A DNA stretch of 64,000 bases. Source: Centroscyllium fabricii. Lineage: Eukaryota. Shown one piece after another: positions 1-59,573 of this stretch. The notes beneath the pieces were generated by a model, which saw nothing but the letters and a program-made list of their open reading frames with translations, was not told the origin of the DNA and ran no database searches. The stretch is from assembly GCA_051313645.2 (NCBI GenBank), contig JBNRSN020000016.1, positions 47,988,001-48,052,000 of the forward strand, in the 5' to 3' direction. The position numbers were made by a program, and so were the translations under genes. Each line of letters begins with the position of its first letter. Positions within the stretch are counted from its first letter, which is position 1.

Positions 1-689
1 TCTACCTTCGGGCCCCGGGGAGTATTCTACCGCACGCTCCGGGCCCCGGGGAGTGTTCTACCCGCGCACTCCGGGCCCCGGGGAGTGTTCTAACCGTGCG
101 CTCTGGGCCCCGGTGAGTGTTCTACATGCATGCTCCAGGCCCCGGATAGTGTTCTACCCACGCGCTCCGGGCCCCGGGGAGTGTTCTATCCCCGGGCTCT
201 CTCCCGGGGAGCAATCTACCCGCGCGCTCCGGGTCCTGGGGAGTGTTCTACCCACGCACCGGCCCTGGTGAGTGTTCTACCCGCGTGCTCCGGGCCCCTG
301 GGGAGTGTTCTACCCGCGCGCTCCGGGCCCCTGGGGAGTGTTCTACCCGTGTGCTCCAGGCCCCGGGGAGTGTTCTACCCGTGTGCTCCGGGCCCCGGGG
401 AGTGTTCTACCTGCGCGCTCCGAGCCCCGGGGAGTGTTCTACCCGTGTGCTCCGGGCCCCGGGGAGTGTTCTACCCGTGTGCTCCGGGCCCCAGGGAGTG
501 TTCTACCCGCGCGCTCCGGGCCCCGGGGAGTGTTCTACCCGCGCGCATCGGGTCCCGGGGCGTGTTCTACTCGCGCGCTCTGGGCCCCAGGGAGTGTTCT
601 AACCGCGCGCTCCGGGCCCCGGGGAGTGTTGTACCCTCGCGTTCCTGGCCCCGGGGAGTGTTCTACCCACGCGTTCCGGTACGGGGAGT
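1..689. repeat. 32-bp GC-rich minisatellite (ccccggggagtgttctacccgcgcgctccggg), about 21 units
   Basis: gagtgttcta recurs with 32-bp period (e.g. 51, 83); explains the repetitive ORFs at 53-715. Confidence 0.95.
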
Positions 690-1095
690 GGGCGGCACGG
701 TGGCATAGTGGTTAGCACTGTTGCCTCACAGCACTGGAGACCCGGGTTCAAATCCAGCCTCGGGTACTATCTGTGTGGAGTTTGCACATTCTCCCCGTGT
801 CTGCGTGGGTTTCCTCCGGGTGCTCCGGTTTCCTCCCACAGTCCAAAGATGTGCGGGTTAGGTTGATTGGCCATGATAAATTGACTCTTAGTGTTAGGGG
901 GATTGAATATGTGGGGTTACGGGGATAGGGTGGGATATGTGTCGGTGTCGGCTCGATGGGGATCGAGGGATATGGGGAGAGGGCAGGGGCGGGGTGCTGG
1001 GTTTGGATGATCAGCCATGATCTCATTGAATGGCAGAGCAGGCTCGAAGGGCCAAATGGCCTACTCCTGCTCCTATCTTCTATGTTTCTATGTTT
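690..1095 (+). mobile_element. tRNA-derived V-SINE (HE1-like), full length
   Basis: A-box tggcatagtgg, B-box ggttcaaatcc, V-domain tgtggagtttgcacattctccccgtgtctgcgtgggtttcctccggg, CR1-type tail ending (tatgtttc)n. Confidence 0.92.
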
Positions 1096-3109
1096 CCAGG
1101 CCCCGGGGTGTGTTCTACCTGCGCGCTGCGCTCTGGGGAGTGTCCTACCCACGCGCTCCCCCCGAACCTTCAGTGGTTCGGAATTTTCAGTGGACCAGCA
1201 CCGGCCTGGTCCCAAGGGTGCCGGATTAACAGTGCTCAACCTGTAGTTTGTTTTATTGCAAGCCTGCCTGCAAAATCCTTATCAGAATCAAGTACGATTG
1301 CCTTCATTCAGTGTAGCTGGTTTTCAAGAAAACAGTAGGAAAAATCTCTGAGAAATTTTACCACATAAAGCCAAACAGTCTAAGGCCAAATAATGAGAGG
1401 AAGGGAATGAACTTGTAGTGGAAGAAGTCTGGACATGTAAGTAACAAAAATCAAGAATGAGGAATAAGCTATTCAACCTATCAAAGCTCATCCTTACAGT
1501 ACCTTCACATCCTAATGTTCTTGCCTCCACTATTTTCCTGGCAGCTTATTCTGAGCCTTTATCACCTTTGATTACAACAGTGTTTCCAAATGTATCCATT
1601 TTAAACTTTTCATTAATTTAAGTTTATATTCTTTGGTCCTACTTTCCCGGCTTCATTTAAAGTCATATTCTTGGTTTTCCTAATCAATGCTCGTTAACAT
1701 TTTATATACCTTAATTATGTCCCTACCTCTTTTAATTGCCTTCTTTATAAACAGTGTAGCTTCAGTTATTTTAATCTTACCTCGTAGCTCATCCCCATTA
1801 CCCTTGGAATCAGTCTTTGTAATGCAAGTACATGTTTATTGTGACAAAGTGAGCAGAATTGAACGCATTGCGTATTTCTATCTGCAGGACAGCCAGTGAA
1901 ATGGTATCTTAAGTCATTTCACTAGGATGATGATAATTTAAAGCAGCCTTCAACGATTGTTGTGAGAATCACAGTGTGAAAGTACCAGGAAAGTGATGAT
2001 TTGTTTTCTGGGCTAGGTTTCTGGCTGCACAGCTGGTGTAGTTTTTCCCTATAAAGCCAATGATATTCTTCAGCTCTCGACTGAAACCACTTTTTGTAGT
2101 CACAAATGTTCCACCAAAAAAAAATTTGGAACAAATGTTGGTCAAAAATTCTGTGGAGTCATATGTGTTTTAAAATGGAGCTGCTCTCGCTCTTGCCTTT
2201 TGTACTGTACTCCGAAGACCTCACCTTACTCAGAACTTCACCACAGCAGGGTCCAGCGCTGTTGCAAGCATTCTGTTTGCCAAATATTGACTGTGCTTGC
2301 TGGGAAGGCCTTGTATTACATTGTGTATTTATTGAAACTGACAGAGGCAAACTTTAACCATCTCATCGTTCAGTGACTGGAAGTTCAGTGGCCTGAGTGT
2401 CTGCTGTGGAATCTGTTGGGAGAAGCAGTGGAACTAGAGATACTCAAAGTGCATTGTTGTAGTCTATTTTTTTTTAACACTTTCTCGTCCAGGTGTATAT
2501 GTTTAATCATTTGTCAGGTTAAAGCTCCTTTAACTAGCACGATTCCGACCACTTAGAATGGTAGCATCTACTTTGTGAGTGTTGCTAGTTGCTGCCCTTC
2601 TATTTCTGGAGCATCTATTGCGTGGTAGTGGCCAGAGGAATCTTTTTGCTTCTTTATTTTCACCTTGCAGCATGGCTCTTGGTGTGTTCCCCCAGACCTT
2701 AATGATGTCGTTATAATTTGGAACTGCCAATTATTTAACATTGCAGAAGGTTTGTGGTGTGAAAGTCAAGGGGGTTTGACGAGTGGTGGTAGTTCTGACA
2801 ATTTGGAAGATGGTTGCACTGATGGAGGAGACCCAGTGATGGTTTAAAGAACCTACTTCCATTGCAATTTCAAACAGAAAGATTTAAAAACAGGTGGGCC
2901 AGTGGGCCTGATTTATTCTGGTATCTTTACATTCAGAGTTTTCTGAATTGCTTCCACAGTCAGAAATCCTATTTGGGTCTCTGTCAGCCCTGAGGTCCCT
3001 TGGCAATCCTGGATGGCATTGTATTTGCCTGTCTAACTTCAACAGGAGTTGGAGTGCCAGGATCTGAAGAGAGGTTGACTGAATATGTTTTCATTTGAGA
3101 AAAGATGAA

Positions 3110-3360
3110 GAAACATAGAAACATAGAAGATAGGAGCAGGAGTAGGAGGCCCCTCGAGCCTGCTCCGCCATTCAATGAGATCATGGCTGATCATCCGAAC
3201 CCAGCACCCTGTCCCTGCCTTGCCCCCATATCCCTCGATCCCTATCGAGTCTGCACTGACACATATCCCACCCTATCCCCGTAACCCCACATATTCAATC
3301 ACCCTCACACTAAGGGTCAATTTATCCTGGCCAATCAACCTAACCCGCACATCTTTGGAC
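3110..3360 (-). mobile_element. 5'-truncated V-SINE
   Basis: Reverse complement of the 3' 250 bp of the element at 690-1095. Confidence 0.9.
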
Positions 3361-3627
3361 AGAAGAATAGACATGGGCCAGTTTTTTTAAAACGCTGAGA
3401 AGAGTGAATGATGTAGATGCACGCAGGTTGTTTAATTTGAACTATCTGCAAAGAGCTAGAGAGCATGCATTTAACATCAACAAACTTCCAGCAAGTCCAG
3501 AGATTTAGAAGAAATGTTTTTCGCCCCAATGTCGCAGATGTGTGGAATAGGTTTGCCGCTAAAGCAGTTATGATGCTGATTAACAGATTTAAGAGCGAGG
3601 TGATTGAGTGTCTCACTGTTTTAGGAA

Positions 3628-5349: not shown

Positions 5350-5708
5350 AAACATATATAGAAACATAGAAGATAGGAGCAGGAGTTGGCCATTCGGCCC
5401 TTCGAGCCTGCTCCGCCATTCAATGAGATCATGGCTGATCATCCAAACCCAGTATCCCGCCCCTGCCCTCTCCCCATATCCCTCGATCCCTATCGAGCCT
5501 CCATCGACACATATCCCACCCTATCCCCGTAACCCCACATATTCAATCCCTCTAACACTAAGGGTCAATTTATCATGGCCAATCAACCTAACCCGCACAT
5601 CTTTGGACTGTGGGAGGAAACCGGAGCACCCGGAGGAAACCCACGCAGACACGGGGAGAATGTGCAAACTCCACACAGATAGTCACCCGAGGCTGGATTT
5701 GAACCTGG
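5350..5708 (-). mobile_element. V-SINE, 5' head truncated
   Basis: Reverse complement of V-SINE from B-box to tail. Confidence 0.9.
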
Positions 5709-8376
5709 TTCTACCTATAGGGCTGTTAAAAATACAAGTACATCAGAATCTGTATAATGCATGAGTCAGTCCTCTTCAGTACTAAAGCATAGCAGTTGCT
5801 TAAGGCAAGTGGCTGTTCATTCCAGGTGACAATATTGTTTGGATCGTAAACCGTGCAACAATGGCTGTATTAAACTGTAATCATGACTGCATTTAAGGGC
5901 GGCGCCGTTTGCTTGTTATTACGACCATGTAAATTTTACCAGTCTGCACAATCCAGGTAAAAATGCCACTTAATTAAATTGAGAAGCTGTTGGTTATGAA
6001 GAAAAAAATGATTGGTTACGACACTTGGTCGTTAGTCAAGGTGACCAGAAGGACAGGTTTTGCTGCAATTAGGGGGGAAAAAACTCCAACCCACAGAATA
6101 TTTAGTTTTTCTTTGGTCAGTCATTTCATGAAGTTGGGTAAATTAAGCCAATTAAAATCACAGTATTCCTACCCAACACAAATCTCTGTTCAACTCCCAA
6201 CACCATTTCTATTGAAATTCCCTTTTTACAGTGCTAAAATGCAGCCCCCGTTACTGGAAATAGATATTGTACATTTAATGATCGGAACAGCATACATTTC
6301 TCAGTTTGTACCCATCCTTGTGGGTTTGAGAACCCGTGCAGTATGTTTGTGAATTGTGTGCTTCGTCTCTGGGTAATACCGCCCAGGAGAATACTAAGTG
6401 CATCCTTTTTTCACTGTTGTGGTCACTGGTTCACGCCATTGTTATCAAAGCAGTGATTAATCATGACATTTTGCGTATTGTTTCTATGGAGATTAAAATG
6501 ATCCGTATTGCTTAAAATGGCCAGAATAAGTTTACCAACATTGCATGTGCTTTTGTCATGCACTGGTCAAAGTCTGGCCTTGACATGTGCCGGCTTCAGT
6601 TTTTCCCTTTTGCACTATACTGCTGTTACTTCAACATCAGATTATCTTCTTATAATCAGCTGGAACTAGACGTGTTTCCCCACCCAGGCCGCACCTTTGG
6701 CATGAACGTCTGTATTATGACATTGTAATTCTTTCAAAGAAAAATGATTTAACTTGAGCTGTCAGATATCAAATTGTCAGCATTACTTATTAAAGCATTC
6801 AGGCCTCCTCTGAAATTCCAAAATATTTAATTTAGAAGTCCCAGTACAGTGTGTTGCAGATCTTTGGAAAACAATGGCAACAAATCTCTGTCCAGCTGTT
6901 CAGTTTACTGTTCGCAGTATGCAGACACTAAAGCGTATAAAATGGAAACGACTGAACTATATTTGGGTTGCTAATGGAAATAGTATTGTCGAATATTGAG
7001 GATGGAATTACATATTCTGGTTATCATGTAACTGTATGCGCTCACTGCAGTAGACCCCTCCCCCATCGTTAGGTGGCTCTTCAAAAATGTATATTATTTC
7101 TAACTCCCTCACTAATATAGACCTTATATAATGTATACAGGACTCTTTTGAACTGTTTTTTTGTAAATAGCTTGCAAAGATACTGTTGTAAAGGAAGAGG
7201 CAATGTGCTTTTTGCAGTCATCTTGGGGAATGTTAGTGGTCAGAATGATCAGAACAAAACCATAATTTAAAATGATCTCAATTTCCCCACACAATCTATT
7301 CTAGTCCACTGGTCTACAAGGTTACAAATATGTCAGCCTAATAGAAATTTTAGAAGCAGTTAACTAGACTGGCTATGGGCAGAGCCAGCAGTAATTGCAA
7401 ATATAGAATGTGAATGTAGCACAGTTTATTTCTTGCGAAAACACACATACTCTGTGTAGCTATAGAATTTCATCAAACCCTCCAGTGATCAGTAACAGGT
7501 GCAATTTATCTCACTTTATACCAGTGTTTTATACTGTGCAGTAGGTCATCTAAAATCTATACTGAGCAATTTGCATTAGGTTTACCAGAGAGAGAGAGAG
7601 AAACTACCTGCACAATACAACTAATAGATGCTTACAAATTCTGCAAATAGCAGCCATGTTAAAAAGGTAAGCACGCACTTGGCATAAAGTCACTCAGAAT
7701 TATTACTGTATTCAGCATCTATCGGCACCAAACAAGTATGATCCGGAAAAAGATCCTGTTCAGAGCATGCCGCACAGCAGCTGAAAATGCATTGTTGCCA
7801 GTTCAATTGTCCAGAATCTGCACCGAATTATCGGTAATTATTCATTGATAGAGATCTTTGGATTGGAGGAGTGGCCTTTGTGGAAGAATATAGAATTGCT
7901 CTATTTTTATATGTTTCCATCTCAATGAAAGGCTCGAGCCAGCTGTATCTCTATGGAAATCTCATTATTCCTGTTGCATTGTTGACTAACACACGTAATT
8001 GGCCAGGTCTATTGGCATATTTAATAAGGGATGGTTGCCCTGGATGGGTTCTCTTTTGTTTATGTCTATGGCTTTATTCAGTAATTAATTCAAAAGCAAA
8101 GGGGTTTGGTGGCTGGATTTGCTTAAGTGGAATGTTAATATATGTAGACTGACAGACTGTGGAACAGACAAATTCAAATTCTATGATTACGGAACTATTA
8201 AAGGGCAATGTTTCCAGGAAGATGATAATACCTGGACATTAAGGTGCCACCTCACAATGTGTGAGAGACGATTTTGAAAGTCTGTTTGTAACATGAAAAT
8301 CACCATGCTCTTTGCTCTTTCGTTCTGACTGGAGATCTGAACTCCATGGGTCAACTAGGAATTGCACTAGCGACAT

Positions 8377-11105: not shown

Positions 11106-11414
11106 AATAATAATAATAATAATAATAATTCAACTTTATTGTCATTATACAATGTACAAGTACATGAACAACAAAATGTGATCTTGCAAGCTCCCAAGAG
11201 TCCAGCAAAGCCGCTGCGTCTGTGCGCGCCGCCATTCCATCCTCCCATCATTCCGACAATCTTCAGCCAACCGCCCCTCCCTGGGGCTCCTTTCGTGACC
11301 TTCTGCACCTGGTATTCCCTGGTGGTTACCCATCCAAGTACTAACCAGGCCTGGCTCTGCTTAGCTTCCAAGCCTTGCCAGTGGCCCTGTCCCTAGTCCC
11401 AGGAACAAGGTTCA
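11106..11414 (-). mobile_element. 5S rRNA-derived SINE with Rex1-like tail, copy 1
   Basis: Minus strand ggaagctaagcagagccaggcctggttagtacttggatgggtaaccaccagggaataccaggtgc matches the 3' part of 5S rRNA; ends atgacaataaagttgaa(tta)n; three copies in window. Confidence 0.88.
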
Positions 11415-16630: not shown

Positions 16631-16660
16631 AATCTTGTGAAAGCAGAGCCGCAGAAAGGT

Positions 16661-18108
16661 TGCATTGTATTCCACAGTATTGTGGGAATGGATAGGTTGC
16701 ATTGTATTCCATGGAATCATGGGAATGGATAGGCTGCACTGTATTCCACAGTATTGTGGGAATAGATAGGCTGCATTGTATTCCATGGAATCATGGGAAT
16801 GGATAGGCTGCACTGTATTCCATGTTATCATGGGAATGGATAGGCTGCACTGTGTTCCACAGTATCATGGGAATGGATAGGCTGCACTGTATTCCACAGT
16901 ATTGTGGGAATGGATAGGCAGTATTGTGGGAATGGATAGGCTGCATTGTATTCCATGGAATCATGGGAATGGATAGGCTGCACTGTATTCCATGTTATCA
17001 TGGGAATGGATAGGCTGCACTGTGTTCCATGGTATCATGGTAATGGATAGGCTGCACTGTATTCCACAGTATTGTGGGAATGGATATACTGCATTGTATT
17101 CCACATTATCATGGGAATGGATAGGCTGCACTGTATTCCACAGTATTGTGGGAATGGATAGGCTGCACTGTATTCCACAGTATCATGGGAATGGATAGGC
17201 TGCACTGTATTCCACAGTATCATGGGAATGGATAGGCTGTACTGTATTCCACAGTATCATGGGAATGGATAGGCTGCACTGTATTCCACGTTATTGTGGG
17301 AATGGATAGGCTGCACTGTATTCCATGTTATCATGGGAATGGATAGGCTGCACTATATTGTGGGAATGGATAGGCTGCATTGTATTGCACAGTATCATGT
17401 TGCACAGCTACAATACCATGGAATACAGTGCATGGGGCGGCACGGTGGCACAGCGGTTAGCACTGTTGTCTCACAGCACTGGAGACCCGGGTTCAAATCC
17501 AGCCTCGGGTACTATCTGTGTGGAGTTTGCACATTCTCCCCGTGTCTGCGTGGGTTTCCTCCGGGTGCTCCGGTTTCCTCCCACAGTCCAAAGATGTGCG
17601 GGTTAGGTTGATTGGCCATGATAAATTGACCCTTAGTGTTAGGGGGATTGAATATGTGGGGTTACGGGGATATGGAGGGATATGTGTCAGTTTAGGCTCG
17701 ATAGGGATCGAGGGATGTGGGGAGAGGGCAGGGACAGGGTGCTGGGTTTGGATGACCAGCCATGATCTCATTGAATGGCGGGGCGGGCCGAGTGGCCTAC
17801 TCCTGCTCCTAGTTTCTATGTTTCTATCATGGGAGTGGATAGGCTGCACTCTATTCCACGGTAGCATGGGAATGGATAGGCTGCACTGTATTCCACGGTA
17901 TTGTGGGAATGGATAGGCTGCACTGTATTCCACGGTATTGTGGGAATGGATAGGCTGCACTGTATTCCACGGTATTGTGGGAATGGATAGGCTGCACTGT
18001 ATTCCACAGTATTGTGGAAATGGATAGGCTGCACTGTATTCCACAGTAGTGTGGGAATGGATAGGCTGCACTGTATTCCACGGTATTGTGGGAATGGATA
18101 GGCTGCAA
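16661..18108. repeat. 37-bp minisatellite (gggaatggataggctgcactgtattccacagtattgt) interrupted by a V-SINE
   Basis: Period 37 (ctgcactg at 17881 and 17918). Confidence 0.95.
17434..17827 (+). mobile_element. V-SINE, full length
   Basis: Same head, V-domain and tail as 690-1095. Confidence 0.92.
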
Positions 18109-19315: not shown

Positions 19316-19709
19316 GGGCGGCACGGTGGCATAGTGGTTAGCACTGTTGCCTCACAGCACTGGAGACCCGGGTTCAAATCCAGCCTCGGTTACTATCAGT
19401 GTGGAGTTTGCACATTCTCCCCGTGTCTGCGTGGGTTTCCTCCGGGTGCTCCGGTTTCCTCCCACAGTCCAAAGATGTGCGGGTTAGGTTGATTGGCCGT
19501 GATAAATTGACCCTTAGTGTTAGGGGGATTAAATATGTGAGGTTACGGGGATAGGGTGGGGTATGTGGCTCGATAGGAATCGAGGGATATTGGGAGAGGG
19601 CAGGGACAGGGTGCTGGGTTTGGATGATCAGCCATGATCTCATTGAATGGCGGAGCAGGCTCGAAGGGCCGAATGGCCTACTCCTGCTCCTATCTTCTAT
19701 GTTTCTATG
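19316..19709 (+). mobile_element. V-SINE, full length
   Basis: Same structure as 690-1095. Confidence 0.92.
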
Positions 19710-21906: not shown

Positions 21907-22255
21907 CAGGTTGAGCACCGTTAATCTGGCACCCTCGGGACCAGGCCCACTGAAAATTCCAAACCACTGAAGGTTCGGGGGGAGCGCGCGGTAGAACACT
22001 CCCTGGGGCCCGGAGCGCGTGGGTAGAACACTCCCCAGAGCCCGGAACACGTGGGTAGAGCACTCCCCAGGAGGGAGCCCGGGGATAGAACACTTACAAG
22101 ACCTGAAAAAGCAGAAACCCAAACGCCCGCTCGCTCCCCCTTCCCGGGAAACGGTGGCGCTGCCAAGCGGCTGCTCCGCAAAATGAACAGCGCCGGTTTC
22201 CAAATCGTGCCGGACCATCGGGTGCCGGGGTGCCGGATTACCGGTGCTCAACCTG
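21907..22255 (-). mobile_element. pogo/Tigger-like MITE
   Basis: TIRs caggttgagcaccg / cggtgctcaacctg, TA on both sides; about four 32-bp internal units. Confidence 0.92.
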
Positions 22256-22517
22256 TAGTGGTTTTGACAAATGTGTAAGCATGTTGGTTGCTGTTGTGTT
22301 ACTAATGCCCAGCGCAAGATATTGGTGGATGTATTCTGTGGTATAGTTCAAGAATGTTTTATTTTGAGTGACCTGTTTTACGTAACGATATTGTCACCTG
22401 TTGAAGTGACCTTTTTCAAATGCTGGGAGGAAGAGTAAGCTTTCCTTGAGAAATAGTAATATTGAAAATCTGATCCTGTAAAGTGTCACCTTTTTAAGAT
22501 AGATATGTTGACAAGGT

Positions 22518-26800: not shown

Positions 26801-27330
26801 AAATTTTGACAGAACTGCTGTGTATTTCTACCTTTTTATATTTTTATTTCAGATTTTTAACATTTGCAGCGCTGTTTCTATTTATTCCTTGTTTGGTAAT
26901 TCAGTAAAGTTACTGTTTTTCATTCCGCACACATTTTGTTTTATCCTCTCCCCGTCCAACCAAATGAGCAGCTGGGTGACCTGCCCCCAGGTCTCAATGG
27001 ATGCCACAAGAGTCAAATGCCAATAGCTGGGCGGGAAAGCTCGGAACTGGTGCTCGTTCTCTGATTGTGTTTCTTGTCACTCTCCCTGCCATTTCTCCCA
27101 AAGCCACTTGGGCATTAAATCTGCAGGGAACTGCAAGTCACTATTTAATTTAGGTCGACTGAATTTGCTGCTGCTGATTAATTTACTTATTTTTTCCACA
27201 GCTTCATGTACCTGTTTTGAGACATGAACATCCCAAGGAGGAAAAAAAATGAAGCATGTGTAGGATCTGCTGTAGTGGATTGTGTGCTGTGTGTGATGAT
27301 TTTGCAGAGGATCAGTGGATCTGGAGTTTT

Positions 27331-27623
27331 AATAATAATAATAATAATTCAACTTTATTGTCATTATACAATGTACAAGTACATGAACAACGAAATGTGA
27401 TCTTGCAAGCTCCCAAGAGTCCAGCAAAGCCGCTGCGTCTGTGCGCGCCGCCATTCCATCTTCCCATCATTCTGACAATCTCCAGCCAACCGCCCCTCCT
27501 TTCGTGACCTTCTGCACCTGGTATTCCCTGGTGGTTACCCATCCAAGTACTAACCAGGCCTGGCTCTGCTTAGCTTCCAAGCCTTGCCAGTGGCCCTGTC
27601 CCTAGTCCCAGGAACAGGTAGCC
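27331..27623 (-). mobile_element. 5S-derived SINE with Rex1-like tail, copy 2
   Basis: Near-identical to 11106-11414 with a short internal deletion. Confidence 0.88.
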
Positions 27624-27647
27624 AACAGCCATGTCTGCTACTCACTA

Positions 27648-27988
27648 CAGGTTCAGCACCGGTAATCTGGCACCCCATGGTCCGGCACCTTCAGTGGTCC
27701 GGCACGAATCAAAACCGGCGGTCTTCGGTTTGCTGAGCAGCCGCTTGGCGGCGCCACCGTTTCCCGCGAAGGGTGAGCGAGCGCCGCGGGCGTTTGGGTT
27801 TCTGTTTTTATAAGGCTTGTAAGTGTTCTATCCCCGGGCTCCCTCCCGGGGAGTGTTCTACCCACGCGCACTGGGCCCCGGGGAGTGTTCTACCCGCGCG
27901 CTCCCCCCGAACCGTTAGTGGTTCGGAATTTTCAGTGGTCTGGCACCGGCCTGGTCCTGAGGGTGCCGGATTACTGGTGCTCAACCTG
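27648..27988 (+). mobile_element. pogo/Tigger-like MITE
   Basis: TIRs caggttcagcaccggtaat / ttactggtgctcaacctg, TA flanks. Confidence 0.92.
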
Positions 27989-30573
27989 TACTAACATGCT
28001 GGCTGGAGGGAGGCTGAGTGTGAACTACTCACTCCCCGAGGGAAGCTGATAATATCGCTGATGATTTTGAAAAGATTAGATAGGAACCACATAACAGAGA
28101 GTAGCATCCTCTGAATTAATGAAGTACTACTTGTGACACCAGGGTCTATTGTCTCCTTACCCCTCTCTCTGAGTCATTCTTTCTATGCAGCCAAAGAGTC
28201 CCCTTGAAATTAATTTTAATATTTCGTAAAAAGATGACATAGAGCAAGGCTGTGCTTTCCGAGCACTGCACCAGTCTAATTTTCATAAAGATGATAATGA
28301 CTGTTTGTCGACCTGCATTTCGGATGGAAAATCAGTGGTGCAGTCTAATTACTTTCTGACATTTGGTAACATCTGCAGTTAACAAACTCTGCCCTTTAGT
28401 TTACCAACTAGTTTCTGTGCCATTGTTGACCTGTAAACACACAACTGTTTTACAGGGAAATTCTCAATTACTTGTTTATCAGCTAGCTTTTTGGAATTTG
28501 TCTTCAAATTCTGTGACCGTAAAAGCTGAAAAGCAGTTAAATAACATGTGCCTTCGCTTTGCAGAATTCCAAAGGCTGGTTGGCAAACGAAAAACATATC
28601 AACAGCAAATTTCCAGTTTCATATAAATCGAAATACCTTGCGCCCAACACAGCAAGGCCCCTTTCATTCTACAAGTAACAGATTAAAAAAAAAAAACACT
28701 GCTTTGCAGTACTTTCTGCGGGCAAACCTGTTCATTTATCTGACGTTAAAAAGGATAAAAGTTTGATCTCATCTTATGTACCAGCTATGGGTGAGCAGTG
28801 TGGTCATCCAAACCTGTACCAAAGCTCCACTGGTTTTGGTTTATATTGCCAAATATGCTGCTTTGCCAATTACAAAATAAGAAAACTATCCAAAAAAATG
28901 AATATGCATTTGTGTCTACTTCAGCCCTTGTGACGTGGCAGGTTTTGCTTTCTCCCTACTGCAGTGCTAATGGCTGAGGGATCACAGTTAAATAAACTGG
29001 GCCTGGAACAACTATTTGGAGTAACAAATAGCACAGTCCAGTAGTCGACACAATTACGTGTATTATTTTTAATTTCTACTGTAATACGCTGTGCATGTGG
29101 AGTGCTGAAGTATTAGACTGAAAATTGAATGTTTGTTCCTATTTGAAATGCAAGCATTGCAATCCTGAATTGTGATGCCTCTTAGAGCATCATCTTAATC
29201 CACCAGGGTCACTTTTAATCGCTCTTGACGGTAAATGTCATGAAAGTGAGGTAAAACCCAGTCTCATTCTAATGGCAGTAAGACCCATGAAGGGTTGTCT
29301 TATCATTTTGTGGAGGTCTTTGATCTTTCTGACCTGGGCCAGACAGGAAATTCACGGGTGAAATCAGTTCCCAGAACGGATTCCCCACTGTTTCTCTATC
29401 TTCCAGATCAGCTTGCTTGCTGTGATGTTGTTTTAGAGTGAGGGGACAGAGGGAGATTGACTTTTCGATAAGACGGTGCAAGTGTGTGACTTAAGGCAAT
29501 ACGTTTACTGTTTTTCTGCCATATGCATCACATAATTGTTTTTGTGAAGTGTTGCATCTGAAGGTGGTTCAGGTGTTCAGAGTCTCTTGAAGCAAGTAGG
29601 AAAATGGTAGCTAGTTTGAAAAATATATATTTCTTTCCTAATCTGGTAATGACTATTGTGATGATTATTGAACTCTGGCATGGTGTATGTACAAAATGTT
29701 GCGTAGCAGTAATTGCATAGCAGTTGAAGGGTAACATCCCTTCTAAAACATTATTAACAGAAAAGCTTGTTTCAGTTCAGTATTTCATTACTTTTTACCA
29801 TATACATGTATATTATCTATACAGACCTTCACACTATGTGCTATATTGCATTACATTTCTTTAGGCTATGCTTACATTTTTCCGCCTTCCCTCAATTCTG
29901 GGTTCTGCTTGAAAAGTAAATATGTAACATTTGAGTTAAAATACCAGAATTTTCTGAAGTTCAAATTACTTTTGAGTTTTCAGTGACCAAGCACATCTTT
30001 GTTTCGAATAAATCAGTTGACAAGAGTTTCAAATAAGATTGCACTTGTATAGAAGTTTTATATGAAGCTTAGACAAAACTGGCCATAAAAAGCAGTTGGC
30101 TTCCAACTGTGCCAACCTGAGAACTCTGTTCACTGAGGGGGTTTAAAGCAGCTGAACCTTCAGACTTCTGAGACCACCATTCCATCTGTATGCTTCAGCG
30201 GCACCCAATGAACATCCGCTATAGGAGGATCAAATCTTGGGTCCAATTGCTTTACTTTAATGCACTTTTGCCTTAGATCACATCAAAACCTTGGCACGGT
30301 CAACTTTTATTTGGCATAGGGGAGTTGGCTTTATCAGCGCTCTAATTTGTATAGTAATACCTGTCACAAAGACCTCCTGGGGTAGACCACCTAGTATCTG
30401 TCCTATGAAAATTTGGCCAGATCATGTAGCAAGGCGCCCTGACAAAGTCTGCATGATGTCCATTCCAAAGCTGGAATACAGATAGGTCACACTGTATATT
30501 GACCACCTGTTGTTGCAAGCCTTGCGCATGGCCATTTTGACACAAAGGGTACAGTGAGCAATCCTAGAGTCAG

Positions 30574-33430: not shown

Positions 33431-36400
33431 TGACACGCAGGCCAGAAGGATAGTGGGTACCTCTTGCACATGTGAGCGACAGAAGAAACACTTAGCCGGG
33501 GTTGGAGAGGTTGTTTGAGAGAAGGAAAGATGATATTTCACATGGTTTGAGAAGGTTGGTAAACAAAATACACAGATGTTAGCATCACATATTGATTGTG
33601 TGCATGAGTTCACATCCGGGAGTATTGGGTTGACCTTTACTATGAGGCAGTTCAAAATGTGCCCTTTAACTCTTACAGTTCTAAACTTGGATAGTTCAAA
33701 GAACCGTGTTATATCCCATTAAAGAACTTCATATGCTGTATGGTATATCACCAAAGACTAATTTATAGGGACTCTCTTTTTGCCCCCTGGATCTGTCTGG
33801 TTCCCTTGTTGTCCTTTGCACATTCTCCTGACTTTCTTTTTCTCTCTTCTTAGTAAGGATGTGGTAATGCAATTTTTGACCAAAGGAAAAAAACATTTCA
33901 AAATCACAGCAGTTTTCTTGTGAATGATCATATTTCCAGGCCTGTATTTCTGGTTTGTGGCAAATAGAACAACTGAAGAGGAAAGCAAAGAAACAAGGAA
34001 GTGAAACTGGGGTCACAGTGAAAACATGACTTCACTGGTCCATGACACAACCATTGCTCATGTGGTCAACCCTCAGAAAAACTTTCAGTTCAGCCTCATA
34101 CAACCCAAGTGGCCCTGAAAGTTCTTCTTTTCATTCACCATATGGGATTTAAAATTCTTTCAACTAGGAATAGCAGGGAGGCTGGCCACAGTTTCCCTCA
34201 TCTGATTTCCCTAAACTGACCTCCATATTTACACAGGAAGTTTGTTTTTCAGTGGAAAAAGATGGTCTATTTTATAACCTGTGAAAGACCATTTATCACC
34301 CAGATTCGTAACTTAAACAGATATGTAAAAATCCTTAAAATAAATCAAAAATTATATTCTGGCATATAATCAGTATCCCACCTAAACCTCTCGTGTACTG
34401 TTACAGTATTGAAGAACAAAGGTATGTATTTTGTCGCAAGTCGACTTCTTATAGGCCACAACCTGTGCTGAGGTTGGCAAATCAAATATTCATAAATGCA
34501 CTACACACTACATTTAATTTTTCTACCACACAGAAGTGTATTCACATATTTTGACTTGCTGCCAAATTGTGTGAATTCAGTAGCCAGTCTGTGCTTGTTG
34601 TTGTCAGTCTTGCAATGTGATGCCAAGTATCCTCGTATGTCTTCCTTTTTCTCCAGCTGGAAAGGGTGGTGAATTCAGGTTACATAAACAAATTCCTCAG
34701 TTAGTAATCATCATTTTGTCATTACAAGAAGAATGGCAGCTCTGTTCCATTTTAATGCTATTGCATTTATCTGACCATCTGTCTGTATTGGTCCTCATTC
34801 AATGGTGTGGCAGTGCCCAGAAATACTCATTTCCAGGCTTCAAACATTTGTGACCAATTTGAAAAGCGACAATCAGCTGCGCATCTGCGAAACTGCCTTG
34901 CGGGTACATAATGGGGGGTTGGGTGGGGAATAACAATTTTACACTTTGGCTTATAATATTCCTGTAAAGCGCCTTGGGACGTTTTACTACATTAAAGGCG
35001 CTATATAACTACAAGTTGTTGTTGTTGTCTATTGTGACACAGAACAATCAACGCCGTGCAACGTTATTAGAAGTGGCTGTGCTTTTGCTGAGCCATGGTA
35101 CACATTTTCAATACATCTGAAGGGTTTCTAACATTCTTGATAGTTATTTCTGTACAAAGGTACAAGAAAAGACTCTGAGCCAGGCGCTGTACTGAAGTAG
35201 GCCCCATGCCAAATCCTATTTTAGTCTGTGGTACAGGTTACAAGTACTCAGGTGCAGCAAACATTGGCAAAGAAAAGTGGGCCTAGGGCAAACAAAGGAT
35301 AGGCAGAGCGCCACTTCCATTCAGGTGATTGTTCAGCTCTCACTAGCAAATGTAGTATTTGCCTGGGGCCCATCTCATTCTGACAGCTTGACAGGCAGCT
35401 CAGGGAAACCAGCCTATAACCTACTAATAAATGGAATATATAACTGAAACCTTAAGGTGGTCTTGCTGTGTCCAAAGTCGTTTATTTATTCATTTAACTT
35501 TTATGTTTCGTTCTGATGTTTCCATGTTACTCTAAGTTTCTTGTGAAACCTCACAGGCGAACCTTGATTTTGTAATGGGAACCCGGAAGAGATGGTGCAG
35601 CTTCTCGAGTAGTCTTAAAAAGTTGCTTTTTAGGTGTGGGATAACTGTAATTCATTAATATTCATTGCTCATTAAAATGTAAGTGCAGCGATGATTTATA
35701 ATCTGACCACATTTGTTGAAGTAAATTGAACAAGTATGTTGACTAAATAAGTCCCGTATTCAGTAGAAATATTTTGTGGGTTAATGAGAGCTTCTGAATT
35801 AATAGAGGTCATTTTAACAAGGAACCTGTGTAGTACTGTTGGTTAACCCATTGGATAACAAATTACCATTATAGCCTATTTTAGTTCCAATTAATTTTCA
35901 AAAGCAGCAGTATTTTGTTCCTTCATACTTGAGCAGTAGTTTAAAGAAAAGTCAGCTCCTAGATTGATCATAATGAATGGCTTTTAAAATGTAGATATAC
36001 TGTACTAACATTCCTGCACGTGCCATTTTATGTTGGTTCAATATGCACAGTGAGATGTATCTCTCAACCAATCCTCTGGACGCAGTGAGGTGATACATCA
36101 GTTGACTTGTGATTCCTTATTTTTGGTCAGTAACTAGTTTTATTCTCATATGATCCTGCACTACATACACCTGACATTTACAGCACTCACAATACAAAGG
36201 TGACAACAAAAATAATCTTTTGTCTGATCAGGTTTATTTGATAATGTGGCTAAGTGTGGCATCACAAGGAGGTAAATGCCCTTGTGATGCCACACTCAAC
36301 CAAAACGTTGGATTCAATTCAATTCAATTGTCATTGCAGAGTACTAGTACAATACAACGAGACGAAGACTCGCCGTTCCCGAGAGTAGTGCAAATAATTT

Positions 36401-36919
36401 ACATACAATTGCATACAGTAAAGTACATTTTCAGGTGTGCAGGTACCGGAGTTTTTTGTTAGAGTTCAGGAGGCTGACAGCCCTGGGGAAGAAGCTGTTC
36501 TTGAATCTAGTTGTGCGGGTGCGAATTGATCTGTAGCGTCTCCCGGAGGGCATGGGGGTGAACAGACTGTGGCTGGGGTGTGTGTGGTCTTTAATAATGT
36601 TCAGAGACCTCCGTAGGCAGCGTTTGAGGTAGATGCTTTCAATTGACGGTAGCTGGGTGCCGGTGATTCGTTGGGCAGTTTTGACTGCCCGCTGCAGGGC
36701 CTTCTGGTTCGAGATGATGCAGTTTCCATACCAGACTGTGATGCAGCTTGTCAGTATGCTTTTGATTGTGCAGCGGTAGAAGTTGGAGAGGATGCCGGAT
36801 GACAGCTTGGCTTTTTTCAGCATCCTTAGGAAGTACAGGCGCTGTTGGGCCTTCTTAACCAGAGAGGAGGTGTTCAGTGACCAGGAGAGGTCTTCCGAGA
36901 TGTGGACCCCGAGGAACTT

Positions 36920-38488
36920 ACATAGATACATAGATACATAGATGATAGGAGCAGGAGTAGGCCATTCGGCCCTTCGAGCCTGCTCCGCCATTCATTGAGA
37001 TCATGGCTGATCCTTCAGTTCAGTATCCCGTCCCTGCCTTCTCTCCGTAACCTTTAACCCCTTTTGCCTGCAGAAATATATCTAATTCCCTCTTAAATAT
37101 ATTTAATGAGCTGGCGTCCACTGCCCTCTGTGGCAGTGAGTTCCACAGGTTCACCACTCTCTGGGTGAAGAAATTCCTCCTCATCTCTGTCCTAAATGGT
37201 TTAGCCCTTATCCTTAAACTGTGTCCCCTAGTTCTGTACTCTCCTGCCATCGGAAACATTCCTTCTGCATCTAGTCTGTCCAGGCCTGTCAGAATTTTAT
37301 ATGTTTCTATGAGATCCCCTCTCAATCTTCTAAACTCCAGTGTGTACATCCCCAAACTACATAGTCTCTCCTCATAGGTCATTCCTGCCATTCCTGGTAT
37401 CAGCCTGGTGAATCGCCGCTGCACTCCTTCCATGGCAAGAACATCCTTCCTCAGATGAGGCGACCAAAACTGCACACAGTACTCGAGGTGTGGTCTCACC
37501 AGTGCCCTGTACAGCTGTAGTAAGGTGTCCTTGTTCCTGTATTCTAACCCTTTTGATATGAAGGCCAGCATACCATTTGCCTTCCTGACCGCCTGTTGCA
37601 CCTGCATGCTCGCCTTCAATGACTGGTGCACAAGAACACCCAGGTCTCTCTGTACTTCCCCATCTCCCAATCTATTGCCATTTAAATAATAATTTGCCCT
37701 CCCGTTTTTGCCCCCAAGGTGGATAACTTCACACTTATCCACATTATAGTGCATTTGCCATGTATCTGCCCAGTCCCCCAATTTGTCCAAATCGCTCTGG
37801 AGCTTCCTGATCTCTTCTTCTGAGCCTACCCCCCCCTCCTAGTTTAGTGTCGTCTGCGAATTTGGAGATGCTGCATCCGATTCCCTGATCTAGGTCATTA
37901 ATATAAATTGTGAACAGCTGGGGACCCAGGACAGATCCCTGAGGTACCCCACTTGTTACTGCCTGCCATTCAGAAAATGAGCCGTTTAATCCAACTCTCT
38001 GTTTTCTATCTGCCAGCCAGTTCTCTATCCACGTCAATACTTTTCCCCTTATCCCATGAGCCTTGATTTTACATGCTAATCTTTTATGTGGGACCTTATC
38101 GAAGGCTTTTTGGAAGTCCAGGTACACCACATCTACTGGCTCTCCCCCATCTATTTTACCAGTTACTTCCTCAAAGAATTCCAATAGATTCGTCAAGCAC
38201 GATTTACCTTTTGTAAATCCATGTTGACTCTGTCCTATCCTGTCCCCATTTGCCAAGTGCTCTGCTATTACATCCTTAATGATGGACTCTAGTATTTTGC
38301 CCACCACCGATGTAAGGCTTACAGGTCTGTAATTACCCGCTTTTTCCCTACCCCCCTTTTTAAATAGTGGGGTAACGTTAGCTACCCTCCAATCCATGGG
38401 CACTGTTCCCGAGTCTATCGAATTCTGGAAAATTATCCTTAAAGCATCTGCTATCTCTAGGGCCACCTCCTTGAGTACCCTAGGATGC
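36920..38488 (-). mobile_element. Young CR1 (HER1-like) LINE, 5'-truncated, RT with one frameshift
   Basis: ORFs 37744-38488 and 37020-37790: [36 protein letters not shown]; TSD aactt at 36915-36919 and 38489-38493. Confidence 0.95.
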
Positions 38489-39549
38489 AACTTGAAGCTG
38501 GACACCCTTTCCACCTCAGCCCCTTGGATGAAGATGGGGGTGTGTCTTCTGCTTTCAGTCCTCCGGAAGTCCACTATGATCTCCTTGGTTTTCTTGGTGT
38601 TCAGTGCCAGGTTGTTGTTGGCACATCATCCCACAAGGCGCTGGATCTCATCCCTGTAGGCTGACTCATCGTTGTTGGTGATCTGGCCAACCACCGTGGT
38701 GTCGTCCGCAAACCTGATGATCGTGTTGGAGCCATGGACAGCCGCACAGTCGTGAGTGAAGAGGGAGTAGGAGTGGGCTCAGCACACAGCCTTGTGGGGC
38801 CCCTGTGTTCAGGGTAAGGGGGGGGAGGTGAGGTTGAGGAGTTTGGTAGACAATTTGCTGGGGATGATGGTGTTGAATGCTGAGCTGTAGTCAATAAACT
38901 ACAAAAAACAGCATTCTGATATACGTATCTTTGCTATCCAGGTGGTTTAGTGCAGAGTGAAGAGCCGTAGTGATAGCATCTTCCATTGATCTGTTTCCTC
39001 GATAGGCGAACTGGTATTGGTCCAGGGCGGCGGGGACGCTGGCTTTGATGTGGGCCAGGACCAGCCGCTCGAAACACTTCATGATTATGGGTGTGAGTGC
39101 GACAGGGCTGATGGTGGCAGTCTTGAAGCAGGTAGGGACAGCTGCCTTCGCCAGTGACAGGTTGAAGATGTCAGTGAAGACCTCAGCCAGTTGGTCGGTA
39201 CAGTCTTTGAGTGCCCGGCCGGGGATGCCGTCAGGACCCGCGGCCTTCCGTGCGTTCACTCCACGTAGAGCACCTCTTATGTCGGAGGAGGACAGTGTTA
39301 GTGGCTGGTCCTCCGGAGCAGGACTTTGGTGGCTGGCTCCCTGTTGTCCCTGTCGAAGCGAGCGTAGAAGTTGTTGAGTTCCTCCGGTAGGGAGGCATCG
39401 CTGGTCGGGGGGCTGGTGTTTTTGCACTTTTAGTCCGTGATGGACTGTATGCCTTGCCACATACGCCGAGGGTCCGCGTTGTTGTGGAAGTGTTCCTCTA
39501 TCTTCAGTGTCTGATTTCATTTGGCAGACCTGATACCCCTCTTTAGGTT

Positions 39550-39843
39550 AATAATAATTCAACTTTATTGTCATTATACAATGTACAAGTACATGAACAA
39601 CGAAATGTGATCTTGCAAACTCCCAAGAGTCCAGCAAAGCCGCTGCATCTGTGCGCGCCGCCATTCCATCTTTCCATCATTCCGACAATCTTCAGCCAAC
39701 CGCCCCTCCCCGGGGCTCCTTTCGTGACCTTCTGCACCTGGTATTCCCTGGTGGTCACCCATCCAAGTACTAACCAGGCCTGGCCCTGCTTAGCTTCCAA
39801 GCCTTGTCAGTGACCCTGTCCCTTGTCCCAGGAGCAGGGCTCC
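39550..39843 (-). mobile_element. 5S-derived SINE with Rex1-like tail, copy 3 (inserted in Rex1)
   Basis: Same sequence as copies 1 and 2; aggtt repeated on both sides. Confidence 0.88.
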
Positions 39844-41548
39844 TAATAAAGGTTGGCCCTGGCTGTGCTGTAAGCCGCCACATCCCCAGATTTGAAAGCT
39901 GCGTCATGTGCCTTCAGCAGCCAGCGGACCTCGCCGTTCATCCAGGGTTTCTGGTTGGGTAATGTCTTGATGGTTTTTTGGGTAGTGACCACCTCGACAC
40001 AGCTGTTGATGTAAAAAAGCACTGTGGATGCGTATTCCTCGATGTCCGTGTGAGCGAACATGCTCCATTCCGTGCGTTTGAAGCAGTCTTGTAGCTCTGA
40101 GACTGTTCCTTCTGGCCATACCCTGACTGTTTTGGCTGGAGCTTTCACCCTTTTGATGAGTGGTTTGTATGCTGGGGCGAGGAACAGTGAAAGGTGGTCG
40201 GACTTCCCGAGGTGGGGCCACGGGATGGCTTTGTAAGCCTCTGCGATGTTGGTGTAGACCTGGTCCAGCATGTTCTCACCCCTCGTGGGTGCAGGAACAA
40301 ATCATTGTGTTGGGTACAGGAACAAATTACAATATGATCAGAATCTTCCGTTTGTTTTCTTAATGAGTTACTTGAGTTTGGCGCATGGTTTATGCAAATT
40401 GTACTCCAGATGTTTCAATTTTTCCAAAGTTAGCCATTATTTACCATTTTCTGTTTAGCTCTTACCCATTTAGTGATTTGTCTTTTTCCAAATGATTTTT
40501 CTAGTTTGCAGAATGAACAGTTCAATACCTATGCCAGCAGCAAGTCAATCTGAACGCCCTGAAACAATGACATATCCATAAGCTGTAAGAGCATTGTACT
40601 GCCGGCAGTCAACTTGTGATGTAGCAATAGATACACATACCGTGCAAATAGTAGAAGTTGTCCGTAGCCCTTTTGTTTTAGAAACTTGATGTGGGGCACT
40701 TTTCAACCATTCGGAGTGAAAATTCTTCTGTGTGGTGGTACCCAGGTCAAACCAGTATCCCTACAGAGTGGAACACTTATCCAGCACAAGAATATTAATA
40801 ATATTGCCCTTCCTGCAGAGTGTATTTTGTTACGGTAATCAACCTTCTTGATTTGGTTATGATGGATATCTTCATTATGAACGCATAAAAAAGAGGATTG
40901 GAAAAGACCAGCTGGTTCATCAAGTTGGTCCCGAACCATATGGTGCAACCTGTTCACACCATGTTCTCTAACTCTCTCTCTCCCTGTCTCTCTCTATCTC
41001 TCTCTCTCTCACACACACACATGCAATCTCCTGGGAGAGGTAACAAAAACAAAAAGAAAATTTGGAAAAATTAGGGAAAAACGCTGGGAAATCCCTCTCC
41101 GACTCCTGTGGGCAATCAAACACACTCCAGGGGATCACGATGACGGAGGCCAGTGTCGCTGTCAACCCACCTAGCTTTTGTAATTCAAGATCAACGTCAC
41201 TGTTTGTGACGTAACAGACTTCTATATATAAAAAAGACTTTTTATAACCCACTTCTGATGATTGTCACTTGTTGATTGGGGCATCTTCCTCATTCAAGTC
41301 ATCAAATGTAGCCCTTCCTATAAATTGGAAACTTAAAAGAAAGTACTTAGAGTAACTCTATTTCCATAAACAGTGATCAGTGTAAAGACTTATTCTGCAT
41401 TGAGCTCTGGCATAGATGCACAGATTACACCTACCTCTCTGTGATAAAAAACAAGTTTGCAGTCGGAGGTGATGATTAGCGCCAGACACTAATCGTAGCG
41501 CCCGGCTGATAATTGCGCCCCAAACGGGGCGATACTGAATTTCTCCCC

Positions 41549-46971: not shown

Positions 46972-47118
46972 CATCCTGGATGCTTTAGTTTGAACTGGCT
47001 GCTGTACTGTGTCATTTAGCTGGGTCATTATTTCATGTGCAGTGTGACAATGCCGAGAGGCTATATTATCAAATTTTAAACAACATATCACCTTGTCACT
47101 AACTTCTGACCCATAAGA

Positions 47119-59088: not shown

Positions 59089-59573
59089 CAGGGCCGGCCT
59101 TAGCAATTGCAGGGCCCAATTTGGACCAGGGTGGAACCTCAGCAATATGATATTACACATCACACAGGGCTGGCTAAACTCAAGTCAGCGCCCAGTATGA
59201 TACCTTAGCATCAATGTGAAAGTAAAGTGATCCAGATCTCCTTCAAGGTTGCTATAATTAGTCATGTTGTGCATGACTGCTCCATGCCTGCATTTCCAGC
59301 CCGAGCCTAATTATTGATTGGTGCCTTTTTGCAGCTCAAAAGAATAAGACACCAGTTATGTAACTTATTTGCACTACTCTCGGGAGCGGCGAGTCTTCGT
59401 TTCGTTGTATTGTGCTAGTACACTGCAATGACAATAAAAATTGAATTGAATTGAGTTTGGTTTGGTGGCGTTAGGGTTTTCAGTGTGGACTTTCAACTAA
59501 TGGGTGTGGGGTCCCCTGTGGGCGCGGGGCCCCATTGGGTCAAATAGGTTCAATTGGCCTAAGGCCGGCCCTG
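59089..59573. mobile_element. hAT-type MITE containing a Rex1 3'-end fragment
   Basis: TIR cagggccggcctta / taaggccggccctg; exact 8-bp TSD ctcaagtc. Confidence 0.88.
59357..59454 (+). mobile_element. Rex1 LINE extreme 3' end
   Basis: Near-identical to the reverse complement of 36312-36406. Confidence 0.88.

What the first reader, a model, noticed from the sequence alone, without database searches (positions are those of the whole stretch)
11106..11414. Candidate undescribed SINE family: half a 5S rRNA behind a replaced head, with a Rex1 LINE tail
Seen: three ~300-bp copies (11106-11414, 27331-27623, 39550-39843, all minus strand). Each reads ~45 nt of non-5S head (gg..cc.tgttcctgggactagggacagggccactggcaaggctt), then GGAAGCTAAGCAG...CCTGGTTAGTACTTGGATGGG..ACC.CC.GGGAATACC.GGTGC, a unique body, and a (tta)n tail. 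Known: that block is the 3' part of 5S rRNA holding the Pol III type-1 internal control region (A box, IE, C box). Seen: the shared 5' boundary lies ~48 nt upstream of the A box, about the start spacing of real 5S genes. Inference: the promoter is still used even though the 5' half of 5S was replaced. 5S-derived SINEs (SINE3, AmnSINE1, OS-SINE1) are known, but I do not recognise this head or body. Low divergence between copies suggests recent activity.
Basis: partly seen in the sequence, partly recalled or inferred. Interest (0 to 1): 0.75.

Follow-up and report, generated by a model that had tools for sequence, protein, structure and literature searches.

The report
Half-5S SINE built on Rex1 ends
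Three near-identical 300-base repeats in a likely shark or ray genome join the promoter half of the 5S ribosomal RNA gene to the two extreme ends of a Rex1-type retrotransposon, a combination I did not find in the papers I could search; the element is likely transcribed from that half-gene and copied around the genome by Rex1 enzymes.

Summary
The repeat is real: three full-length copies, 95.5-97.8% identical, in unrelated flanks. Anatomy: 42-nt non-5S head; 5S rRNA +44 to +117 with A box, IE and C box; ~61-nt unassigned linker; the 5' tip of a Rex1-type LINE; its last ~80 nt; (TTA)n. The 'unique body' is thus partly explained. 27 nt match the 5' end of a Rex1-type LINE at 26/27 (E 6.5e-7; best of 100 shuffles 22/27), joined directly to a Rex1-type tail (59/78). 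Kojima 2018 found only RTE and Vingi 5' parts in SINE bodies, so Rex1 would be a third clade. Copy 3 splits a Rex1 ORF with a 5-bp duplication. All 5' ends lie at about 5S +2 to +7. A newt 5S gene lacking nt 1-40 initiates in upstream vector DNA, so the head is likely captured flank. Pol III transcription, Rex1 mobilisation and copy number are untested, and Repbase, Dfam and SINEBase could not be searched. Verdict: a 5S-derived SINE, new variant of a known kind.

The parts
11106..11414 (-). SINE copy 1, full length, no target-site duplication found
11373..11414 (-). copy 1 head: 42 nt not derived from 5S (positions +2 to +43 in 5S register); predicted 11-bp hairpin; origin unknown
11299..11372 (-). 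[quoted passage not shown]
   Evidence: (by eye); box limits recalled
11236..11298 (-). copy 1 linker of unknown origin, purine-rich
   Evidence: no match in window or 76 Rex1-type loci; not a duplicate of the head
11209..11235 (-). copy 1 segment matching the extreme 5' tip of Rex1-type LINEs (26/27 to L021:2136-2162); holds a YY1-type core
   Evidence: YY1 core
11129..11208 (-). copy 1 segment matching the last ~80 nt of Rex1-type LINE 3' UTRs, with a predicted 7-bp stem
11106..11128 (-). copy 1 (TTA)7 tail
27330..27623 (-). SINE copy 2 (10-bp deletion in the linker; 5S part 27508-27581; Rex1 tip 27428-27454; (TTA)6 tail); no target-site duplication found
39550..39843 (-). SINE copy 3 (5S part 39728-39801; Rex1 tip 39638-39664), inserted inside a Rex1-type LINE
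39844..39849 (-). extra TTATTA between the 5' target duplication and the head of copy 3
39850..39854 (-). 5' copy of the 5-bp target-site duplication AACCT of copy 3
39545..39549 (-). 3' copy of the target-site duplication of copy 3
36310..40301 (-). 5'-truncated, decayed Rex1-type LINE hosting copy 3 and a nested CR1-type fragment; its 3' UTR end (about 36316-36395) is homologous to the SINE tail (55 of 82 columns)
59363..59455 (+). isolated 3'-end fragment of the same Rex1-type LINE family, homologous to the SINE tail (59 of 83 columns)

Best explanation
This is a ~295-bp interspersed repeat made of a non-5S head, the promoter-bearing 3' part of 5S rRNA, a linker, and the joined 5' tip and 3' end of a Rex1-type LINE; it is likely a SINE transcribed by RNA polymerase III and likely copied by Rex1 reverse transcriptase. 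Mechanism, step by step. (1) Shown: the 5S part starts at +44, just upstream of the A box, and lacks the 5S terminator. (2) Inferred: TFIIIA/TFIIIC bind the internal control region and place the start about 48-49 nt upstream of the A box whatever lies there, so a 5'-truncated 5S copy captured its flanking DNA as a new head. (3) Inferred: Pol III reads on through the body and stops at the first downstream T-run. (4) Shown: the 3' half consists of a Rex1 5' tip fused to a Rex1 3' end, i.e. a bipartite, internally deleted LINE. (5) Inferred: Rex1 protein recognises the 3' stem and microsatellite and inserts copies by target-primed reverse transcription; copy 3 shows the expected product. The order of assembly is inferred from the published model for RTE-type SINEs: bipartite LINE first, Pol III head added by template switch or by landing upstream.
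For: Three full-length copies in unrelated flanks. 5S match 64-67/74 over +44 to +117 (by eye); no head similarity to 5S primers. In 5S register the copies begin at about +2/+3 (copy 3; copy 1 by BLAST against copy 3) to +7 (copy 2). Newt 5S nt 41-120 behind vector DNA initiates in the vector and gives a 5S-sized RNA (PMC2111863 abstract). No T4 run on the sense strand of copies 2 and 3. Tip: 26/27 to L021, E 6.5e-7 in 218,688 nt of 76 loci; 0 of 100 shuffles above 22/27; 4 of the 9 loci that reach the LINE N-terminus carry an 18-26/27 match 214-276 nt upstream of the same protein motif; homology between independent LINE copies starts at or 8 nt before the motif. Tail: 59/78 to L001, 45/52 to L002 and L039. 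Rex1 label: both published Xiphophorus Rex1 primers translate to motifs found in the window LINE and many loci. Copy 3 separates residues 448|447 of the aligned L001 ORF, with a 5-bp duplication.
Against: No RNA evidence: the only run on record as RNA holds 0.08 of the words, and no read pile-up was obtained. Only three copies and no genome. Copies 1 and 2 have no target duplication; copy 1 has one T4 run. The first five head positions differ between copies. The C box differs from stingray 5S at 3-4 of 18 positions (by eye), with unknown effect on TFIIIA. No single LINE with both ends highly similar was found: the best tip (L021, whose 3' end is off the contig) and best tails (L001, L002) lie on different, weakly supported branches; L001 has both but only 18/27 at the tip. 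The window's own Rex1 tail is only 67-71% identical, so it is probably not the direct partner. 5 of 9 LINE N-terminal loci lack an 18/27 tip match, and 2 matches of 18-20/27 fall elsewhere (L016 minus strand, L023). The tail stem has little covariation support (2 pairs changed on both sides; 158 of 500 shuffles as high). The head hairpin is broken, not compensated, by copy 3's changes (z -0.48 against about -1.9).
Confidence: 0.8

Rival explanations
1. The head is not captured flank but the 5' half of 5S decayed beyond recognition in an ancestral SINE3 while the promoter boxes were conserved, as proposed for Ajax and lepidopteran SINE3.
For: The head has almost exactly the length of 5S nt 1-43. 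Rfam can force a weak full-length alignment on 2 of 3 copies. Kojima 2024 reports higher divergence upstream of the promoter in several SINE3 families.
Against: Similarity drops from 86-91% to chance level at +44/+43. Non-promoter 5S positions downstream (+98 to +113) are kept at 16/16 against stingray class I (by eye), so relaxation alone should have eroded them too.
Confidence: 0.2
2. The element is an internally deleted derivative of an autonomous Rex1 LINE that itself starts with the head, 5S part and linker (a LINE with a Pol III-type head), so the 5S fusion happened in the LINE.
For: The structure is formally head + LINE 5' tip + LINE 3' end. An unchecked earlier scan note describes a shark LINE with a tRNA head; a lead only.
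Against: In the 4 teleost-like loci with a tip, unrelated flank lies upstream and no 5S hit was found in 13 loci scanned. A 3.5-kb LINE would be expected to hold Pol III terminators. The window's Rex1 copy is 5'-truncated and cannot decide.
Confidence: 0.07
3. The copies are transcribed by Pol II read-through or from the YY1-type Rex1 tip, and the 5S boxes are passengers.
For: The tip holds the YY1 core that sets L1 start sites. The C box has substitutions.
Against: All 3 copies include the head and start near 5S +1, about 180 nt upstream of the tip; no copy starting at the tip exists in the window.
Confidence: 0.06
4. The copies are chimeric 5S retropseudogenes (template switch from Rex1 RNA to 5S rRNA) or products of segmental duplication rather than a self-propagating family.
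For: 5S rRNA is abundant and template-switch chimeras are known.
Against: Identical six-part structure and junctions, shared non-5S head, unrelated flanks, different tail lengths, and one copy inside a LINE with its own target duplication.
Confidence: 0.03

Closest known systems
5S-headed bipartite-LINE SINEs: CoeSINE5 (coelacanth), SINE-1_Pmo (python), Ped-1 (springhare), HaSE3 (moth) (Kojima 2018, PMC5786205)
   Same: Same plan: 5S-derived Pol III head + LINE 5' part + LINE 3' end + microsatellite tail.
   Different: Those use RTE. That paper found only RTE and Vingi 5' parts in SINE bodies, and only RTE, Ingi, Vingi and R2 as sources of bipartite LINEs; 'Rex' occurs 0 times in its supplement. 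Their 5S match starts at +18 (CoeSINE5) or +29 (SINE-1_Pmo), here at +44.
OS-SINE1 of salmonids (5S head, Deu domain, RSg-1 tail)
   Same: 5S-derived SINE in a fish with an RSg-1 tail. That RSg-1 belongs to the Rex1 clade is recalled, not from a call.
   Different: OS-SINE1 is a DeuSINE. Here only ~61 nt are unassigned and the rest of the body is a Rex1 5' tip.
SINE3-1 (zebrafish) and AmnSINE1
   Same: 5S internal promoter driving a SINE.
   Different: Deu domain and CR1-type tail; here Rex1 ends and only the 3' part of 5S.
Cassandra and Ajax TRIMs; lepidopteran SINE3 such as CsSE2 and SINE3-1_ChrCul (Kojima 2024, PMC10886601)
   Same: Keep only box A, IE and box C of 5S, with divergent sequence upstream.
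   Different: Cassandra and Ajax are LTR elements with PBS and PPT; this element has no terminal repeats and ends in a LINE tail.
Published chondrichthyan SINEs: HE1, SacSINE1, CmiSINEs
   Same: Same host group.
   Different: All tRNA-headed with CR1/L2-type tails. A 2024 review table of 5S-derived elements lists none from cartilaginous fish.

Membership tests
SINE (SINEBase definition) | short (<1 kb), interspersed, not tandem | tested here: met
   285-295 nt, three copies 12-16 kb apart in unrelated flanks
SINE (SINEBase definition) | at least 60% identity to tRNA, 5S or 7SL over at least 60 nt | tested here: met
   64-67 of 74 nt to stingray 5S (by eye); Rfam 5S hits
SINE (SINEBase definition) | [quoted passage not shown] | not testable with these tools
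   no genome held; 3 copies in 64 kb
SINE (SINEBase definition) | not an RNA pseudogene: extra body and shared diagnostic changes | tested here: met
   shared head, linker, LINE parts and substitutions in all three copies
SINE3 (5S-derived SINE) | 5S internal control region (A box, IE, C box) | tested here: met
   copy 1 against stingray 5S: A box 13/15 (class I), IE 6/6, C box 14/18 (class II); by eye, box limits recalled
SINE3 (5S-derived SINE) | transcribed by Pol III from that promoter | not testable with these tools
   no RNA reads examined; indirect only: start register and T-runs
SINE3 (5S-derived SINE) | 3' tail shared with a partner LINE | tested here: met
Bipartite-LINE SINEs (Kojima 2018) | both a 5' and a 3' part of a LINE | tested here: met
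   tip 26/27 and tail 59/78
Bipartite-LINE SINEs (Kojima 2018) | donor LINE is RTE or Vingi | tested here: not met
   donor loci carry RT + PF09004 and the Rex1 primer motifs
Rex1 clade (for the donor LINE) | RT motifs at the published Rex1 primer sites | tested here: met
   forward primer peptide matched 6-7 of 7 and reverse primer peptide matched as a loose pattern in the window LINE and many loci
Rex1 clade (for the donor LINE) | groups with named Rex1 references in an RT phylogeny | not tested
   no named reference sequence was at hand; the tree holds only unnamed loci
DeuSINE (OS-SINE1, SINE3-1, AmnSINE1) | Deu central domain (~330 bp in vertebrates) | tested here: inconclusive
   excluded at full length, since only ~61 nt are unassigned; no Deu sequence was aligned
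Cassandra / Ajax TRIM | two LTRs with PBS and PPT | tested here: not met
   no terminal direct repeat; LINE tail and microsatellite end
5S rRNA gene or plain pseudogene | full ~120-nt 5S with T-run terminator, usually tandem | tested here: not met
   below Rfam gathering score; nt 1-43 absent; dispersed copies

The most novel reading that the evidence does not exclude
The first SINE whose body comes from both ends of a Rex1 LINE, making Rex1 a third LINE clade (after RTE and Vingi) to supply SINE middles; the first 5S-derived SINE of cartilaginous fish; and a natural version of the classic 5S deletion experiment, in which the internal promoter recruited flanking DNA as a new head. The retained 27-nt Rex1 tip would point to a cis role of the LINE 5' end in Rex1 retrotransposition that does not depend on Pol II promoter activity.
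Probability: 0.5. Interest if true: 0.62.

Novelty: new variant of a known kind. Interest (0 to 1): 0.52.

Why it matters
SINE middles mostly have unknown origins. The hypothesis that they come from internally deleted LINEs rested on RTE and Vingi alone, and its author left open whether this was sampling bias. A Rex1 case widens it to a third clade and gives a small construct for asking why a Pol III element keeps a LINE 5' tip. 5S-derived SINEs are rare (2.3% of the first SINEBase release) and none from sharks or rays appeared in the papers read. The head illustrates how an internal promoter can create a new SINE 5' end. A young family would also provide presence/absence markers for shark or ray phylogeny. 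The limit: it extends known SINE logic rather than adding a new mechanism, and the family may already sit unanalysed in Repbase or Dfam.

Tried and rejected
No whole genome was held, so there is no copy number or genome-wide 5' boundary. No pile-up of public reads or contigs was obtained, so expression, start site and boundary in other copies stay open. Exact-pattern scans found nothing: metagenome contigs, viral contigs, genome contigs. Rex1 protein scans of genome contigs and viral contigs gave no confirmed locus. No tRNA in the window. Head as 5S 5' half: chance level. Head as duplicate of the linker: 80 and 502 of 1000 shuffles score as well, rejected. Head match in Rex1 loci: only E 0.063. 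Conserved head hairpin: not supported. Whole-element fold z -1.94, unremarkable. Splicing as origin of the tip-tail junction: the LINE bases after the tip in L021, L042, L025 and L001 are not GT (by eye), so unlikely. Tree: tip-like and tail-like loci are not clustered beyond shuffles (38 of 76 loci passed the length and E-value filter, plus the window LINE). A paper search linking DUF1891 to retrotransposons found 0 papers. The SINEBase supplement could not be read; its table may list a related family. PMC2746220 (chondrichthyan Hoxa clusters, one 'SINE3' mention) was seen in listings only. Earlier scan notes held no look-alike sequence.

Full report
Observation. Over the shared core they are 97.8%, 95.5% and 95.7% identical, gaps excluded; copy 2 lacks 10 bp between two GGAG words. 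The flanks are unrelated. The window holds 3 full-length copies, no 5'-truncated copy, and two tail-only matches at 36316-36360 and 59368-59447. No genome is held. The host is likely a cartilaginous fish: the best named relatives of a nested CR1-type ORF are from Leucoraja (75%), Mobula (72%), Hypanus (71%), Chiloscyllium (68%) and Pristis (62%), against mostly 36-51% for birds and turtles. In public runs, 20 of 24 listed rows (12 studies) hold some of 25 sampled words and 11 hold at least half, under organism codes A-D, two unlabelled runs and one fish gut metagenome.

The 5S part and the head. Rfam gives nothing at gathering level and weak 5S hits on all three copies at E 0.001-0.01, well aligned only in the 3' part. 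Against the stingray 5S alignment in the supplement of PMC3123226, copy 1 matches 64-67 of 74 bases from +44 to +117, by eye; the 5S terminal T-run is missing. With the recalled box limits (+50-64, +67-72, +80-97) the A box matches 13/15, the IE 6/6 and the C box 14/18; one of the C-box changes also occurs in two cloned stingray genes. Upstream of +44 the similarity falls to chance: two published elasmobranch primers covering the 5' half match the heads at 7-11 of 21, equalled by 351-2000 of 2000 shuffles. In 5S register, +1 falls at 11415, 27624 and 39844. Copy 3, whose end is fixed by its target duplication, starts at +2 after an extra TTATTA; copy 1 resembles copy 3 from +3 and copy 2 from +7; positions +2 to +6 differ among copies. 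The abstract of PMC2111863 reports that newt 5S nt 41-120 cloned behind plasmid DNA initiates in the vector and yields a 5S-sized RNA. This is the arrangement seen here and makes capture of flanking DNA the simplest origin of the head (inference). The head folds into a 10-11 bp hairpin in copies 1 and 2, but copy 3's changes break it.

The tail. Copy 3 lies inside a decayed LINE with a PF09004 domain whose relatives are mostly teleost and ray proteins. Both published Xiphophorus Rex1 primers translate to motifs present in this LINE and in many related loci. That is the basis of the Rex1 label; no phylogeny with named references was run. A scan of metagenome contigs gave 76 such loci. The last ~80 nt of the SINE align with their 3' ends: 59/78 to L001, 45/52 to L002 and L039, 57/79 to L009, and 55/82 and 59/83 to the window's own LINE ends. 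A 7-bp stem is predicted in all ten aligned tails, with weak covariation. The L001 ORF aligns to the window LINE up to residue 448 on one side of copy 3 and from residue 447 on the other, and AACCT flanks both ends: a retroposition product. Copies 1 and 2 show no duplication.

The body is half Rex1. 27 nt immediately upstream of the tail match L021:2136-2162 at 26/27 (E 6.5e-7); the best of 100 dinucleotide shuffles of the 96-nt body reached 22/27. In L021 this segment follows AT-rich flank and precedes the basic leader and endonuclease-like region. Of 9 loci reaching that region, 4 carry the motif (26, 21, 19 and 18 of 27) 214-276 nt upstream of the same protein motif; 5 have no match of 18 or more, and two matches of 18-20 lie elsewhere. 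Homology between independent LINE copies begins at the motif (L021/L042) or 8 nt before it (L001/L025), so it is the LINE's 5' tip. It includes the 5-nt YY1 core described for L1, but the match runs about 20 nt beyond that core. Tip and tail abut, so the 3' half of the SINE is a bipartite Rex1. The best tip and best tails come from different, weakly resolved branches; the true partner was not found and is probably not the window's LINE. About 61 nt between 5S and tip remain unassigned.

Mechanism. Shown: composition, register, bipartite Rex1 half, one insertion with target duplication. Inferred: TFIIIA-dependent Pol III initiation in the head, read-through (copies 2 and 3 have no T4 run; copy 1 has one), and Rex1-mediated target-primed reverse transcription. 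Confidence 0.8. Rivals: decayed rather than captured head (0.2, affects only the head's origin), a 5S-headed autonomous Rex1 as parent (0.07), Pol II transcription (0.06), pseudogene chimeras or duplication (0.03).

Comparison with what is known. It works like the 5S + LINE5' + LINE3' SINEs CoeSINE5, SINE-1_Pmo, Ped-1 and HaSE3, all RTE-based. Kojima 2018 states that only RTE and Vingi contribute 5' parts to SINE middles, and only RTE, Ingi, Vingi and R2 give bipartite LINEs. A 5S SINE with an RSg-1 tail exists in salmonids (OS-SINE1; the Rex1 affinity of RSg-1 is recalled), and a tRNA SINE with a Rex1 tail in Nematostella, so a Rex1 tail alone is not new. Promoter-only 5S remnants are known in Ajax, Cassandra and moth SINE3. 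The chondrichthyan SINEs in the papers read are tRNA-headed, and a 2024 review table lists no 5S-derived element from this group. Ten searches found no description of this family or of a bipartite Rex1 SINE. The library lacks most subscription papers, and Repbase, Dfam and SINEBase were not searchable.

What was seen of each paper. PMC5786205: parts 1-4 of 5 of the text and supplement passages. PMC3123226: passages and supplement 1. PMC2111863: abstract and references only. Passages only: PMC10886601, PMC3747384, PMC5499810, PMC3531059 (supplement unreadable), PMC4698564, PMC7245038, PMC3728117, PMC8010984, PMC4824008, PMC10946416, PMC3575423 (83, not relevant), PMC11602158. PMC2746220: listing only. 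Unseen supplements of SINEBase and of shark genome papers could list this family.

Verdict. A real, probably young 5S-derived SINE of a cartilaginous fish. New variant of a known kind; interest 0.52.

Noticed in passing
window 39844-39849 (-): Copy 3 has an extra TTATTA, like two tail units, between the 5' target duplication and the head; possibly an abortive first priming or a leftover of a tandem template.
   Followed up: partly
window 36310-40301 (-): Nested stack: a Rex1-type LINE interrupted by SINE copy 3, by a CR1-type fragment (about 37020-38487) and by a short repeat (36920-37017); useful for relative dating.
   Followed up: partly
window 690-1096, 3110-3362, 5358-5712, 17435-17788, 19316-19709, 55541-55944, 58201-58458: An abundant young repeat family (87-97% identical copies, both strands) resembling the HE1 V-SINE of sharks and rays (label recalled, not tested).
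   Followed up: no
window 62131-62437: 153-bp inverted repeat, 94% complementary, 1-nt loop; sub-threshold Rfam MIR2646 hit (146.7 bits against 245); MITE-like.
   Followed up: no
window 9-679, 22012-22264, 27642-27997, 46502-46980, 56806-57140: MITE-like family carrying a 32-bp GC-rich unit, expanded to 21 tandem copies at the window start; one copy lies about 20 bp upstream of SINE copy 2.
   Followed up: no
window 16657-17359 and 17830-18107: 37-bp minisatellite split by an inserted repeat copy.
   Followed up: no
window 63251-63396: Inverted repeat giving weak Rfam 'sok' hits on both strands, probably only a hairpin.
   Followed up: no
L001:93-3092: Intact 1000-codon stop-to-stop frame of a Rex1-type LINE with both 5' tip and 3' tail on one contig; a candidate enzyme source for a trans-mobilisation assay.
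   Followed up: partly
L001:111, L021:2136, L025:391, L042:780: Rex1-type LINEs from different branches share a conserved 5' tip with a YY1-type core, as mammalian L1 does.
   Followed up: partly
proteins P0084 and P0154: Vertebrate LINE proteins labelled Escherichia coli and Klebsiella pneumoniae in public records, probably host-DNA contamination.
   Followed up: no
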